A DNA stretch of 64,000 nt from the human T2T-CHM13v2.0 reference genome, Homo sapiens: assembly GCF_009914755.1 (NCBI RefSeq), contig NC_060925.1. The stretch is one strand, 5' to 3'. The notes below the pieces were generated by a model, which had not been told where the DNA came from, did no database searches, and was given only the letters and a program-made list of their open reading frames with translations. How positions within the stretch are numbered: position 1 is the stretch's first letter; each line of letters starts with the position of its first letter. The position numbers were made by a program, and so were the translations under genes. Of the stretch, positions 42,885 through 46,550 are shown one piece after another.

Positions 42885-44304
42885 TGAGAGGTGACAGCGT
42901 GCTGGCAGTCCTCACAGCCCTAGCTCGCTCTTGGCGCCTCCGCTGCCTGGGCTCCCACTTTGGCGGCACTTGAGGAGCCCTTCAGCCCACCGCTGCACTG
43001 TGGGAGCCCCTTTCTGGGCTGGCCAAAGCCGGAGCCCGCTCCCGCAGCTTGCAGGGAGGTGTGGAGGGAGAGGCGCGAGCGGGAACCCGGGCTGCGGGCG
43101 GCGCTTGCGGGCCAGCTGGAGTTCCAAGTGGGCGTGGGCTTGGCGGGCCCTGCACTGGGGGCAGCCGGCCCTGCCGGCCCGGGCAATGAGGGGCTTAGCA
43201 CCCGGGCCAGCGGCTGCGGAGGGTGTACTGGGTCCCCCAGAAGTGCCAGCCCACCAGCGCTGCAGCTCGATTTCTCGCCGGGCCTTAGCTGCCTTCCTGC
43301 GGGGCAGGGCTTGGGGACCTGCAGCCCGCCATGCCTGAGCCTCCCACCCCCTCCATGGGCCTCTGTGCGGCCCGAGCCTCCCCGATGAGCGCCACCCCTG
43401 CTCCACGGCGCCAGTCCCATGACCACCCAAGGGCTGAGGAGTGCGGGCGCACGGCGCGGGAATGGCAGGCAGCTCCACCTGCAGCCCCAGTGGGGGATCC
43501 ACTGGGTGAAGCCAGCTGGGCTCCTGAGTCTGGTGGGGACGTGGAGAACCTTTATGTCTAGCTAAGGGATTGTAAATACACCAATCGGCACTCTGTATCT
43601 AGCTCAAGGTTTGTAAACACCAATCAGCACCCTGTGTCTAGCTCAGGGTTTGTGACTGCACCAATCGACACTCTGCATCTAGCTACTCTGGTGGGGACTT
43701 GGAGAACCTTTGTGTGGACACTGTATCTAGCTAATCTGGTGGGGACGTGGAGAACCTTTGTGTCTAGCTGAGGGATGGTAAACGCACCAATCAGTGCCCT
43801 GTCAAAACAGACCACTGGGCTCTACCAATCAGCAGGATGTGGGTGGGGCCAGATAAGAGAATAAAAGCAGGCTGCCCGAGCCAGCAGTGGCAACCGTCTC
43901 GGGTCCGCTTCCACACTGTGGAAGCTTTGTTGTTTCGCTCTTTGCAATAAATCCTGCTGCTGCTCACTCTTTGGGTCCACACTGCCTTTATGAGCTGTGA
44001 CACTCATGGCGAAGGTCTGCAGCTTCACTCCTGAAGCCAGCGAGACCACGAGCCCACCAGGAGGAACGAACAACTCCAGACGCACCGCCTTTAGAGCTGT
44101 AACACTCACTGCGAAGGTCTGCAGCTTCACTCCTGAGCCAGCGAGAGCACCAACCCAACAGAAAGAAGAAACTCCAAACACATCCGAACATCAGAAGGAA
44201 AAAACTCCAGACGCGCCACCTTAAGAGCTGTAACACTCACCGCGAGGGTCCACGGCTTCATTCTTGAAGTCAGTGACACCAAGAACCCACCAATTGCGGA
44301 CACA
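42885..44304 (+). mobile_element. Solo LTR12 (ERV9, LTR12C-like) in the MR1 intron, sense orientation
   Basis: Starts TGAGAGGTGACAGCGTGCTGGCAG, ends CCAATTGCGGACACA; CpG-rich U3, repeated CCAAT units, GATA site, U5 repeats. Confidence 0.95.
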
Positions 44305-44551
44305 CCACCACCCATAATGCCACCTTGAAACCACTTTGTCTCCGTCAGGCCCTAAGCTTCTTGGACAAGCGGAGAGAAGTTCAATGTGGGAACAGCAGGG
44401 AGGGCCAAACAGTTTTGTTTCATTTTGGTTTACTTTTAACCCTTATTACAATCCTTATAACTAGTAAGTAGAAAAAGAATAAGAAAATGGTTAACAGCAG
44501 TGGTTTGACATAATAGGAAAAGCACTGTGCTTTAAAAAAAAAAAAAATTTC

Positions 44552-45785
44552 GGCCGGCCATGGTGGCTCACACCTGTAATCCCAGCAATTTGGGAGGCCG
44601 AGGTGGGCAGATCATGAGGTCAGGAGTTCGAGACCAGCCTGACTAACATGGCAAAACCCTGTTTTTACTAAAAATACAAAAATTAGCCAGGCATGCTGGC
44701 ACATACCTGTAATCTCAGCTACTCAGTAGGCTGAGGCAGGAGAATCACTTGAACCCAGGAGGCAGAGGTTGCAGTGAGCCAAGGTCACGCCACTGCACTC
44801 CAGCCTGGGCAACAGAGTGAGACTCTGTCTCAAAAAAATAAATAAATAGGCTGGGCACGGTGGTTCACGCCCATAATCCCAGCACTTTGGGAGGCCAAGG
44901 CAGGCGGATCACGAGGTCAGGAGTTTGAGACCAGCCTGGTCAATATGGTGAAACCCCATCTCTACTTTAAAAATATACAAAAATTAGCTGGGCATGGTGG
45001 CACGCGCCTGTAGTCCCAGCTACTCAGGAGGCTGAGGCAGGAGAATCACTTGAACCCAGAAGGCAGAGGTTGTAGTAAGCCAAGATCATGCCACTGCACT
45101 CCAGCCTGGGCGACAGAGTGAGACTCTGTCTCTAAAAAATAAAAAATAAAAAATAAATAAAATAAATAGGCCAGGCGCGGTGGCTCACGCCTGTAATCCC
45201 AGCACTTTGGGAGGCCGAGGTGGGTGGATCACGAGGTCAGGAGTACAAGACCAGCCTGGGCAAGATGGTGAAACCCTGTCTCTACTAAAAATACAAAAAA
45301 ATTAGCCGGGCGTGGTGACCAGTGCCTGTTATCCCAGCTATTTCGGAGGCTGGGGCAGAGAATTGCTTGAACCCGGTAGGCGGAGGTTGCAGTGAGCCGA
45401 GTTTGTGCCACTGCACTCCAGCCTGGGCAACAGAGCAAGACTCCGTCTCAAAAAAATAAATAAAATAAAATAAAATAAATAAATAAATTTCGGCCAGGCG
45501 CAGTGGCTCATGCCTATAATCCCAGCACTTTGGGAGGCCGAGGTGTGCAGATCATGAGGTCAGGAGTTTGAGACCAGCCTGGCCAACATGATGAAACACT
45601 GACTCTACTAAAACTACAAAAAATTAGCCAGGCGTGGTGGTGTGTGCCTGTAATCTCAGCTACCTGGGAGGCTGGAGCAGGACAATCACTTGAACCCAGG
45701 AGGCGGAGGTTGCAGTGAACAGAGATCGTGCCATTGCACTCCAGCCTGGGCAACAGAGCAAGACTCCATCTCAAAAAAAAAAAAA
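44552..45785 (+). mobile_element. Array of four head-to-tail Alus
   Basis: Alu heads at about 44552, 44849, 45169 and 45492, each directly after the previous A-rich tail. Confidence 0.95.
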
Positions 45786-46289
45786 TGCTCAGTGCATGTG
45801 TTTGTGTGCCTGTGTGTATATGCCCACACGTGCACACACAGAGGTGGAGTGGGGGTCCTCATTTATTCACCAGAGGCTTCTTTGGTAAAAGAAGAAGGCT
45901 GCGTCATCAGGGTTTTCAAGCCTTCAGAGTTCCCGAGGGCTCCCGCAGGGACAGCTCCCCCTGTATCCCCAATGAGTGGTCTTCTCCCTTCCCCCTACAA
46001 CCATAGCAGCACTCTATATTTTGTCTACAAGTTGAGATTACCTATAAAATTCCATCCTGCATTTGCAAACCTGAACGAGAAAGGCTCCAAGTCACTGGTC
46101 TGGAGCTCTTACGTCCTGTCCAGGCCCCGGTTCCTGGGTTCTGTGGTTCTGTAAGAGGAAATGGCAGCTGGGGCGTGGAGGCCTGGGTACAGCTGAGTAG
46201 GGAGCACTCGTGTGGGGCTAAATGAATGCAGTTGAAGGATCTGGATCATCTGGGACCCTACATGTCTTCCTTCTTTGCCTCGTTTCCAG

Positions 46290-46550
46290 GGACGCACTCT
46301 CTGAGATATTTTCGCCTGGGCGTTTCGGATCCCATCCATGGGGTCCCTGAATTTATTTCGGTTGGGTACGTGGACTCGCACCCTATCACCACATATGACA
46401 GTGTCACTCGGCAGAAGGAGCCACGGGCCCCATGGATGGCAGAGAACCTCGCGCCTGATCACTGGGAGAGGTACACTCAGCTGCTGAGGGGCTGGCAGCA
46501 GATGTTCAAGGTGGAACTGAAGCGCCTACAGAGGCACTACAATCACTCAG
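46290..46550 (+). CDS. MR1: MR1 alpha-1 domain exon (261 nt)
   Basis: ttccag|GG ACG CAC gives (R)[21 protein letters not shown]...HYNHS, donor G|gtgtgc; K43 codon AAG at 46415-46417; NHS glycosylation sequon. Confidence 0.98.

What the first reader, a model, noticed from the sequence alone, without database searches (positions are those of the whole stretch)
43560..46292. Intronic LTR12 could launch an in-frame, signal-peptide-less MR1
Seen: the sense LTR12 keeps its promoter parts (CCAAT at 43581, 43620, 43661, 43787, 43825; GGGTGGGG 43841; AGATAA 43851; AATAAAA 43860). The first ATG after the expected TSS (about 43890) is at 43990 and reads ATG AGC TGT GAC ACT CAT GGC GAA G|gtctgc. That is a phase-1 donor at 44014, matching the phase-1 alpha-1 acceptor at 46290, and gives [17 protein letters not shown]..., 327 aa with no leader. 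Established: LTR12 elements are NF-Y-driven cryptic promoters induced by HDAC/DNMT inhibitors and drive GBP2/GBP5 and TP63 isoforms. Inference: an inducible non-ER-targeted MR1 isoform, a neoepitope source, or transcriptional interference with normal MR1. The donor and Kozak context are both weak.
Basis: partly seen in the sequence, partly recalled or inferred. Interest (0 to 1): 0.7.

Follow-up and report, generated by a model that had tools for sequence, protein, structure and literature searches.

The report
Silent ERV9 solo LTR in MR1
An ordinary, well-preserved remnant of an ancient retrovirus (a solo LTR12C) sits in the first intron of the immune gene MR1; it keeps its promoter signals, but nothing found here shows that it makes the proposed leaderless MR1 protein.

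Summary
The element is larger than stated. It is a 1420-bp solo LTR at window 42885-44304 (+), sense to MR1, 1985 bases upstream of the alpha-1 exon.

- **Name:** LTR12C of ERV9, by end-to-end colinearity (up to 91-92%) with copies called LTR12C in print. LTR12E was not tested separately.
- **Age:** roughly 13-23 million years by distance-only terminal-branch estimates. This is an upper-leaning figure and fits the printed hominoid expansion.
- **Start site:** RefSeq 5' ends of 7 of 8 print-named LTR12C-driven genes map to window 43874-43908, supporting a start near 43889.
- **Proposed splice 44014 to 46290:** unsupported.
  - 0 of 11 RefSeq MR1 transcripts start in the LTR.
  - The ATG/phase-1/GT mini-frame is family-wide, kept in 30 of 38 copies.
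  - At all 5 chr1 loci with annotated LTR12-started transcripts, the first exon ends at +404 or more from the start motif.
  - GBP5 skips the same donor-like 9-mer.
  - The standard LTR12C qPCR amplicon runs unspliced across the site.
  - No paper links MR1 with LTR12 or ERV9.

Verdict: a known kind of latent promoter/enhancer relic. The MR1 isoform remains untested speculation.

The parts
42885..44304 (+). Solo LTR12C (ERV9, class I), 1420 bp, same sense as MR1, inside MR1 intron 1
   Evidence: Own-genome search gave 37 other full-length matches (query 1-3 to 1418-1420) at 87-92%. With 100-nt flanks added, homology to 9 of 9 print-named LTR12C copies stops at the LTR ends. RefSeq soft-masks 42880-44297. 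No other LTR12-like hit lies in the 64-kb window.
42885..43504 (+). GC-rich 5' extension typical of LTR12C/D/E (printed ZNF676 target region)
   Evidence: This part is present in the alignments to LTR12C copies. It is absent from the alignment to the ADH1C plain LTR12, which only covers query 621-1273. The ~600-bp extension is described in PMC8767690.
43505..43879 (+). U3 enhancer/promoter: about 41-nt tandem units with five CCAAT boxes, three GTGGGGA motifs, GGGTGGGG, AGATAA and TATA-like AATAAAA (43860-43866)
   Evidence: Each CCAAT is kept in 33-37 of 38 aligned copies and AATAAAA in 32 of 38.
43394..43896 (.). RefSeq functional element 'H3K27ac-H3K4me1 hESC enhancer' overlapping U3
   Evidence: The same label lies on 8 of 78 chr1 copies that carry the start motif, this one included.
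43880..43891 (+). Start-site inverted repeat GCCAGCAGTGGC; expected start about 43889
   Evidence: The motif and its 70% position are printed in PMC11853044; here it lies at 70.1%. RefSeq 5' ends of TP63, IRGM and PGPEP1L map to 43889, ACSBG1 to 43892, GBP5 to 43897, ZNF80 to 43874, LINC01419 to 43908 and SCHLAP1 to 43984.
43946..43951 (+). LTR's own poly(A) signal AATAAA in R, about 57 nt after the expected start and upstream of the ATG
   Evidence: Kept in 36 of 38 aligned copies and 6 of 9 print-named promoters.
43967..44267 (+). U5 with three B-like repeat units (43967-44034, 44069-44136, 44200-44267)
   Evidence: The ~72-bp B elements are described in PMC11853044.
43990..44034 (+).
   Evidence: The ATG is kept in 35 of 38 copies. 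The whole ATG/phase-1/GT arrangement is kept in 30 of 38.
44012..44020 (+). Donor-like AAG|GTCTGC (exon end 44014), the site the proposed isoform needs
   Evidence: Matches 6 of 9 positions of MAG|GTRAGT. Kept in 30 of 38 copies. The published LTR12C qPCR amplicon (43964-44078) runs across it.
44114..44122 (+). Second identical donor-like AAG|GTCTGC (exon end 44116); the LTR frame has already stopped here
   Evidence: The homologous 9-mer is kept in the GBP5 copy, and all three RefSeq GBP5 transcripts read through it.
44461..44469 (+). CTA|GTAAGT in the intron 159 nt past the LTR end, one of only two 7-of-9 donor-like sites before exon 2
   Evidence: It is analogous in place to the GBP5 flank donor ACG|GTAAGA.
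44523..45844 (+). Block of four head-to-tail, sense-oriented Alu-like repeats with A-rich, AATAAA-bearing linkers
   Evidence: masked stretch. The Alu name is my reading of the letters, not a tool label.
46290..46550 (+). MR1 alpha-1 exon (phase-1 acceptor); in-frame ATG at 46436 is the CDS start of NM_001310213.2

Best explanation
Window 42885-44304 is a solitary LTR12C left by an ERV9 (class I, gammaretrovirus-like) provirus. It inserted in the sense orientation into MR1 intron 1 in a hominoid ancestor, roughly 13-23 million years ago. It carries no viral gene.

It is a well-preserved copy that keeps the whole LTR12C promoter kit: five CCAAT boxes, a GC box, a GATA site, the AATAAAA box and the start-site inverted repeat. 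Like most of its family it is most likely silent in ordinary somatic cells and acts, if at all, as a latent promoter/enhancer. Its U3 carries a RefSeq hESC enhancer label.

If it is de-repressed, transcription should start near 43889 and run through R and U5. The most likely products are unspliced or short R-U5 RNA, or RNA spliced from a site at or beyond the end of U5. In all of these the LTR ATG opens only a 14-codon upstream frame.

Shown: identity, bounds, motif integrity, start-site homology, and absence from annotation and print. Inferred: silence, inducibility, and which donor would be used.
For: Identity and bounds:
- There are 37 other full-length matches in the genome.
- The LTR is colinear with print-named LTR12C copies: ACSBG1 91.1%, TP63 91-92%, SCHLAP1 90-91%, ZNF80 88-91%.
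- The match to LTR12D (DHRS2) is only partial at 71-79%. The match to plain LTR12 (ADH1C) covers only query 621-1273 at 73%.
- Ends are confirmed in 9 of 9 LTR12C copies. It is solo: 0 other hits in the window.

Age: terminal branch 0.029-0.038 over all sites and 0.017-0.023 over non-CpG sites. Print places the C/D/E expansion in hominoids about 20 My ago, with activity until about 6 My ago.

Start site: 7 of 8 annotated gene 5' ends map to 43874-43908, and the printed motif lies at 70.1%.

Integrity: this copy keeps all six features checked. The nine named active promoters keep between 3 of 9 and 7 of 9 of each.

Against the 44014 donor:
-.
- The qPCR amplicon spans it.
- A peptide shared by 88 induced transcripts is encoded inside conserved LTR12C sequence.

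Base rate: after forced activation, 130 LTR12C copies became promoter-like and 439 enhancer-like only (PMC11317136).

Tolerance of sense solo LTRs: ERV9 has the least antisense bias of the families studied, and its predicted sense-strand disruption lies in the internal region rather than the LTR (PMC1794541).
Against: - I saw no expression data of any kind for this locus (no CAGE, RNA-seq or methylation). Silence and inducibility are therefore inferred from the family.
- The copy is unusually complete and lies in a transcription unit with an AATAAA box. A study of HIV-infected T cells linked both traits to induction (PMC4574318).
- The chr1 annotation sample for donor use is small: 5 loci.
- U5 repeat number varies between copies, so offsets are approximate.
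- The consensus-match score is crude. The annotated MR1 donor after 34352 also has C at +3.
- The target-site duplication is imperfect: ACAC against CCAC.
- LTR12E was not excluded as a label.
- The age rests on recalled substitution rates, and the branch includes any pre-insertion divergence of the source element.
Confidence: 0.78

Rival explanations
1. On de-repression the LTR starts transcripts near 43889 that splice from 44014 to 46290. Translation from the ATG at 43990 then yields a 327-aa MR1 that begins MSCDTHGEG instead of the leader. This would be a non-ER-targeted MR1 or a junction-peptide source.
For: - Letters, phase and length are correct.
- Promoter parts are intact.
- The normal leader MGELMAFLLPLIIVLMVKHSDS would be replaced by a non-hydrophobic start.
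- Print states that induced LTR12C transcripts can splice into coding exons and encode truncated or chimeric frames (PMC10593957 introduction).
Against: - 0 of 11 RefSeq MR1 transcripts use it.
- The donor-like site matches 6 of 9 consensus positions, no better than 22 other GTs in the interval.
- At all 5 chr1 loci with annotated LTR12-started transcripts, the first exon ends at +404 or more.
- GBP5 reads through the homologous 9-mer.
- The qPCR amplicon is contiguous across the site.
- Kozak context is weak, and an out-of-frame ATG at 44006 lies within the same would-be exon.
- The R poly(A) signal lies upstream of the ATG.
- No paper links them.
Confidence: 0.06
2. The LTR does act as an occasional alternative MR1 promoter, but through a later donor: 44116, 44268, or the intronic GTAAGT after 44463. 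The LTR part then serves as a non-coding leader with a 14-codon upstream frame. Any protein would start at the in-frame ATG at 46436, or the RNA would be degraded.
For: - Annotated LTR12C first exons run to the LTR end or beyond.
- GBP5 carries the LTR ATG in its 5' UTR and is still annotated as translated from exon 2.
- RefSeq already annotates a leaderless MR1 CDS starting at 46436 (NM_001310213.2).
- The site after 44463 is one of only two 7-of-9 donor-like sites before exon 2.
Against: No annotated transcript and no print support. Only about one in five forcibly activated LTR12C copies became promoter-like.
Confidence: 0.15
3. The LTR works mainly as an enhancer for MR1 or neighbours such as STX6 in early embryonic or germ cells, not as a promoter.
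For: - A RefSeq 'H3K27ac-H3K4me1 hESC enhancer' label lies on 43394-43896. It is shared by only 8 of 78 chr1 copies.
- Most activated LTR12C copies gain only the enhancer mark: 439 against 130.
- Enhancer roles of LTR12C are printed for the beta-globin and AXIN1 loci (Table 1 of PMC11853044).
Against: The label says nothing about a target gene. I saw no data linking it to MR1 expression. The source of the label is not shown in the table.
Confidence: 0.2
4. The sense-strand poly(A) signal at 43946 prematurely ends some MR1 pre-mRNAs started at the normal promoter, lowering MR1 output.
For: AATAAA is intact and in the sense orientation. LTR poly(A) signals are a classic cause of selection against sense intronic LTRs (PMC1794541).
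Against: - No RefSeq transcript ends there.
- The review knows of no LTR12 used as a poly(A) site.
- ERV9 shows the least antisense bias, with predicted sense disruption in the internal region rather than the LTR.
Confidence: 0.04

Closest known systems
GBP5 promoter LTR12C (chr1; PMC11853044 Table 1; PMC7641743)
   Same: It is a sense LTR12C upstream of coding exons of an immune gene. The annotated start maps to window 43897. It keeps the LTR ATG and one AAGGTCTGC.
   Different: GBP5's first exon is annotated and runs to the LTR's last base, where the flank supplies a strong donor, ACG|GTAAGA. The LTR part is 5' UTR only. The MR1 copy has no GT at its end and no annotated transcript. The two copies are only 77% alike.
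TP63 (GTAp63) LTR12C alternative promoter
   Same: It is 91-92% identical to the MR1 copy and keeps the start motif, AATAAAA, the ATG and both donor-like 9-mers. The RefSeq gene start maps to window 43889.
   Different: It lies upstream of the gene and its use is documented in print (testis, HDAC inhibitors). Its U3 is about 148 nt shorter. I could not see its exon bounds, because only chr1 transcripts were provided.
Treatment-induced LTR12C transcripts with chimeric or truncated frames (Brocks 2017 as described in PMC10593957; Goyal 2023)
   Different: Those were observed by CAGE, RNA-seq and immunopeptidomics. MR1 is not named in the main text of any LTR12 paper searched. All validated peptides but one were encoded outside LTR12C sequence.
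RefSeq MR1 NM_001310213.2
   Same: It is an annotated MR1 mRNA whose CDS lacks the signal peptide.
   Different: It starts at the normal promoter and gains exon 34237-34352. Its CDS starts at 46436 inside alpha-1 and it skips the alpha-3 exon. No LTR is involved.
ERV-9 LTR of the beta-globin locus control region and AXIN1 (LTR12C enhancers)
   Same: They have the same family and U3 repeat architecture with NF-Y, GATA and MZF1-like motifs.
   Different: Their enhancer action was tested experimentally. Here there is only a RefSeq enhancer label. I did not fetch those copies.

Membership tests
LTR12C (LTR of ERV9, class I) | End-to-end colinear similarity to copies named LTR12C in print, as close as to the best matches genome-wide | tested here: met
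   ACSBG1 91.1% over 2-1420; TP63 91-92%; SCHLAP1 90-91%; ZNF80 88-91%; GBP2 85-89%; LINC01419 83%; PGPEP1L 81%; IRGM 79-82%; GBP5 77%. The best genome-wide matches are 87-92%. The tenth stretch fetched as LTR12C (SCIN) held no LTR, because I guessed its place wrongly.
LTR12C (LTR of ERV9, class I) | About 600-nt 5' extension shared by LTR12C/D/E and lacking in plain LTR12 | tested here: met
   Query 1-620 aligns to the LTR12C copies but not to the ADH1C LTR12. The feature is described in PMC8767690.
LTR12C (LTR of ERV9, class I) | Distinct from LTR12D (a variant with several indels) | tested here: met
   The DHRS2 LTR12D aligns only in pieces at 71-90%, and query 250-620 is unmatched. Only one LTR12D copy was used.
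LTR12C (LTR of ERV9, class I) | Distinct from LTR12E, LTR12B, LTR12F and LTR12_ | not tested
   I found no print-named copy with a gene anchor. hg19 counts are C 2453, D 377, E 104. One 2025 paper counts 3091 'LTR12E' loci, so labels differ between libraries. No Dfam or RepeatMasker tool was available.
LTR12C (LTR of ERV9, class I) | U3 tandem units of about 41 nt with CCAAT, GATA-type and GTGGGGA motifs | tested here: met
   Tandem Repeats Finder reports period 41 with 3.2 copies at 43557-43684. There are five CCAAT in U3 and none on the other strand. GTGGGGA units appear.
LTR12C (LTR of ERV9, class I) | Start motif GCCAGCAGTGGC about 70% along the LTR, with AATAAAA about 30 nt upstream | tested here: met
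   The motif lies at 43880-43891, which is 70.1%. AATAAAA at 43860 is 29 nt before 43889.
LTR12C (LTR of ERV9, class I) | U5 with repeated B elements (about 72 bp) | tested here: met
   Three 68-nt units at 65-100% identity.
LTR12C (LTR of ERV9, class I) | TG...CA ends flanked by a short target-site duplication | tested here: inconclusive
   The ends are TG...CA. The flanks are ACAC and CCAC, 3 of 4 alike. The 4-bp length is recalled, not taken from a call.
Solo LTR (not a provirus end) | No second LTR or internal ERV9 sequence next to it | tested here: met
   The LTR against the whole 64-kb window gives 0 hits outside itself. Homology to other copies stops at both ends. No inner gene was looked for or needed.
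LTR12C-driven host transcript (alternative promoter of MR1) | A transcript start inside the LTR at this locus | tested here: not met
   0 of 11 RefSeq MR1 transcripts and no CAGE feature. This covers RefSeq only; primary CAGE and RNA-seq were not available.
LTR12C-driven host transcript (alternative promoter of MR1) | A splice junction from the LTR or its flank into MR1 exon 2 | not testable with these tools
   Sequencing reads are off for this job. None is annotated. Supplementary tables of the relevant papers are closed.
LTR12C-driven host transcript (alternative promoter of MR1) | A report in print | tested here: not met
   LTR12+MR1 gave 0 papers. ERV9+MR1 gave 0. 'MR1 gene'+'long terminal repeat'+MAIT gave 0. 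The searches cover main text only.

The most novel reading that the evidence does not exclude
This unusually complete sense LTR12C could be a condition-specific second promoter of MR1, active in germ line, early embryo, infection or epigenetic drug exposure. Its RNAs would join MR1 exon 2, and a minor share using the 44014 donor would encode a leaderless cytosolic MR1 with a unique junction peptide. That would tie an ape-specific retroviral relic to the output of the otherwise highly conserved MR1/MAIT-cell axis.
Probability: 0.07. Interest if true: 0.55.

Novelty: already known. Interest (0 to 1): 0.22.

Why it matters
MR1 presents microbial metabolites to MAIT cells and varies little between people, so an ape-specific extra promoter or a decoy isoform would interest immunologists. 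As it stands, the locus is one more of some 2,500 LTR12C copies. It is useful mainly as a clean example: the family-wide ATG/phase-1 mini-frame makes any sense LTR12C upstream of a phase-1 exon look "in frame". That look alone is not evidence of a fusion protein.

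Tried and rejected
- **Brocks 2017.** I tried to read it (PMC6005702) for donor usage, but it is not held. I know it only through the description in PMC10593957 and from recall.
- **Supplementary tables.** The lists of induced or active LTR12C loci in PMC10593957, PMC8767690, PMC11317136 and PMC7641743, and in Brocks 2017, might name this MR1 copy. 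Supplements are closed and I did not open them.
- **SCIN stretch.** My gene-anchored guess (L010) held no LTR12 and was dropped from all counts.
- **Donor scoring.** Only a 9-position consensus match was possible. It does not separate 44014 from 22 other sites and rates some real MR1 donors no higher, so it carries little weight.
- **Rfam.** A scan of 42000-46600 found nothing.
- **U7 snRNA/HDE-like motif.** I read passages of PMC11417402, but the motif letters were not in the passages shown, so I did not test for it.
- **Provirus.** Considered and rejected: no second LTR and no homology beyond the ends.
- **Age by LTR pair.** Rejected because there is no pair. Age by consensus is barred. I used a distance-only three-point terminal branch instead.
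- **Orthology in other primates.** Could not be tested: no primate genomes are at hand.
- It printed a useless flood through my own slip and gave nothing beyond the file header.
- **Note 1.** It says 12 MR1 transcripts; the right count is 11, corrected in note 3.

Full report
**What is there.** All five CCAAT boxes, GGGTGGGG, AGATAA, AATAAAA and the ATG at 43990 sit at the stated places. The frame ATG AGC TGT GAC ACT CAT GGC GAA G is followed by GTCTGC, so an exon ending at 44014 would be in phase 1. The annotated MR1 alpha-1 exon begins at 46290 behind a good polypyrimidine tract and AG. Adding the annotated coding parts gives 984 nt, i.e. 327 residues. I did this by arithmetic and built no joined sequence. 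The normal leader is MGELMAFLLPLIIVLMVKHSDS. The proposed start MSCDTHGE has no hydrophobic core, so "no leader" is right.

**Bounds and kind.**
- The element is larger than the finding's span. A search of the reference genome with 42885-44304 gave 3970 first-look candidates, of which 40 were scored. They yielded 42 match rows: the window itself, 37 other full-length matches (31 at 90-92%, 6 at 87-88%) and 4 partial rows from two split copies.
- With 100 bases of flank added, similarity to 9 of 9 LTR12C copies stops within a few bases of 42885 and 44304.
- RefSeq soft-masks 42880-44297.
- Nothing else in the 64-kb window resembles the LTR. It is therefore a solo LTR and holds no viral gene.
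- The ends are TG...CA. The flanking four bases are ACAC and CCAC, an imperfect duplication.

**Family.** The name comes from the LTR and from print.
- The 2025 J Virol review (PMC11853044) lists loci by sublineage in its Table 1. I read its outline and sections 3, 4, 5, 7, 10 and 15, plus passages of its reference list.
- I fetched twelve gene-anchored stretches and compared them. Nine copies named LTR12C align colinearly end to end: ACSBG1 91.1%, TP63 91-92%, SCHLAP1 90-91%, ZNF80 88-91%, GBP2 85-89%, LINC01419 83%, PGPEP1L 81%, IRGM 79-82% and GBP5 77%.
- The best of these are as close as the best matches anywhere in the genome.
- The DHRS2 LTR12D aligns only in pieces. The ADH1C plain LTR12 aligns only from query 621, so it lacks the 5' extension that marks LTR12C/D/E (PMC8767690, passages).
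- The SCIN stretch held no LTR because I misplaced it, and it is dropped.
- I could not test LTR12E, B, F or LTR12_ separately. hg19 counts are C 2453, D 377 and E 104. One 2025 paper counts 3091 "LTR12E" loci (PMC12587700, passages), so labels vary between libraries.
- The internal anatomy fits the printed description. Units of 41 nt carry CCAAT, GATA-type and GTGGGGA motifs. AATAAAA lies 29 nt before 43889. The start motif GCCAGCAGTGGC lies at 70.1% of the length. There are three B-like units in U5.

**Age.**
I aligned the window LTR with the 37 full-length copies as they stand and computed Kimura two-parameter distances.
- Distance from the window copy to the others is 0.070-0.109 over all sites (median 0.082). 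Over the columns never touched by a CpG in any row it is 0.038-0.064 (median 0.043); 487 of the 1505 columns were CpG-touched and left out.
- The window copy's own branch, from three-point sums over all pairs, is 0.029 (minimum) to 0.038 (median) over all sites. Over non-CpG sites it is 0.017 to 0.023.
- With recalled rates of about 2.2e-9 (all sites) and 1.0-1.2e-9 (non-CpG) per site per year, this gives roughly 13-23 million years.
- The branch also holds any divergence of the source element before insertion, so the figure leans high.
- The branch is ordinary among the 38 copies: rank 7 over all sites and rank 26 over non-CpG sites.
- Print agrees. ERV9 entered about 30 My ago. The C/D/E extension spread in hominoids about 20 My ago, and activity ended about 6 My ago.
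- Orthology in other primates could not be checked here.

**Promoter.**
- The RefSeq 5' ends of eight print-named LTR12C-driven genes map onto the window as follows: 43889 (TP63, IRGM, PGPEP1L), 43892 (ACSBG1), 43897 (GBP5), 43874 (ZNF80), 43908 (LINC01419) and 43984 (SCHLAP1).
- The exact 15-mer around it occurs 1064 times in the genome and 0 times in the reversed control.
- This copy keeps all six features I checked: start 12-mer, AATAAAA, R AATAAA, ATG and both donor-like 9-mers.
- The nine named promoters keep them in 3, 7, 6, 7, 3 and 7 of 9 respectively.
- Its U3 also carries the RefSeq label "H3K27ac-H3K4me1 hESC enhancer" at 43394-43896. Only 8 of the 78 chr1 copies with the start motif share that label.

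**The proposed splice.** This is where support ends.
1. 0 of 11 RefSeq MR1 transcripts start in the LTR.
2. The ATG, open 25-nt frame, phase-1 end and GT are a family trait, kept in 30 of 38 aligned copies. Every sense LTR12C ahead of a phase-1 exon would look in frame.
3. AAG|GTCTGC matches 6 of 9 consensus positions, like 22 other GTs among the 124 between 43890 and 46289. Only CTA|GTAAGT after 44463 and a site inside an Alu reach 7. The score is crude.
4. Of the 78 chr1 motif sites, 5 loci have RefSeq transcripts starting within -300 to +450 of the motif. Their first exons end at +404 (TLCD4), +425 (GBP5), +528, +616 and +811.
5. In GBP5 the first exon ends on the LTR's last base and the flank supplies ACG|GTAAGA. 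The copy still holds one AAGGTCTGC 217 nt after its start, which all three RefSeq transcripts read through.
6. The primers the field uses to measure induced LTR12C RNA (PMC10593957, passages) map to 43964-43983 and 44059-44078. The measured RNA is therefore contiguous across 44014|44015.
7. The LTR's own poly(A) signal at 43946 precedes the ATG. An out-of-frame ATG at 44006, unique to this copy, lies within the same would-be exon.
8. After forced activation, only 130 LTR12C copies became promoter-like against 439 enhancer-like (PMC11317136, passages).
9. No paper in the searched library holds MR1 together with LTR12 or ERV9. Supplementary locus tables, which might list this copy, are closed.

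- The copy is intact and sense-oriented.
- It lies inside a transcription unit and has an AATAAA box. One study linked both traits to induction in HIV-infected T cells (PMC4574318, passages).
- Induced LTR12C RNAs are known to splice into coding exons.
- ERV9 solo LTRs in the sense orientation are tolerated in introns (PMC1794541, passages), which explains why this one persists without harming MR1.
- RefSeq already lists one leaderless MR1 CDS starting at 46436 (NM_001310213.2). That is the likelier outcome if an LTR-started RNA used a later donor.

**Verdict.** This is a real, ordinary, well-preserved solo LTR12C of ERV9, about 13-23 million years old. It is best seen as a latent promoter/enhancer. 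The in-frame leaderless MR1 is structurally possible but rests on one weak, family-wide donor-like site for which I found no use in annotation or print. Only expression data can settle the question.

Noticed in passing
window 34237-34352 and 46436: RefSeq NM_001310213.2 includes an extra 116-nt exon. Its CDS is annotated to start at the in-frame ATG at 46436 inside alpha-1, and it skips alpha-3. It is therefore an already annotated MR1 product without a signal peptide.
   Followed up: partly
window 44523-45844: Four head-to-tail, sense-oriented Alu-like repeats lie between the LTR and exon 2. Their A-rich linkers carry several AATAAA strings. Tandem Repeats Finder reads the block as a 301-323-nt tandem array.
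   Followed up: no
window 43394-43896: The RefSeq functional element 'H3K27ac-H3K4me1 hESC enhancer' covers the LTR's U3. The same label lies on only 8 of 78 chr1 LTR12 copies that keep the start motif.
   Followed up: partly
window 41576-42276: Two RefSeq 'active region' enhancers (41576-41715, 41836-42075) and a silencer fragment (42127-42276) lie within 1.3 kb upstream of the LTR, in unmasked intron sequence.
   Followed up: no
window 44006: A second ATG, out of frame with MR1, is found in this copy only (1 of 38 aligned copies). It lies where the other copies have a CpG-bearing stretch.
   Followed up: partly
G000 chr1, 78 sites of the 15-mer start motif: Within coding-gene bounds, 5 motif copies are sense and 11 antisense; 62 lie outside genes. 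The five sense copies lie within the bounds of AGBL4, FGGY, CYP2J2, MR1 and IVNS1ABP; the CYP2J2 copy is at that gene's annotated 5' end.
   Followed up: no
PMC12587700 against PMC8767690: Printed copy numbers for 'LTR12E' differ about thirty-fold (3091 against 104). Subfamily labels in LTR12 papers seem to depend on the repeat library used.
   Followed up: no
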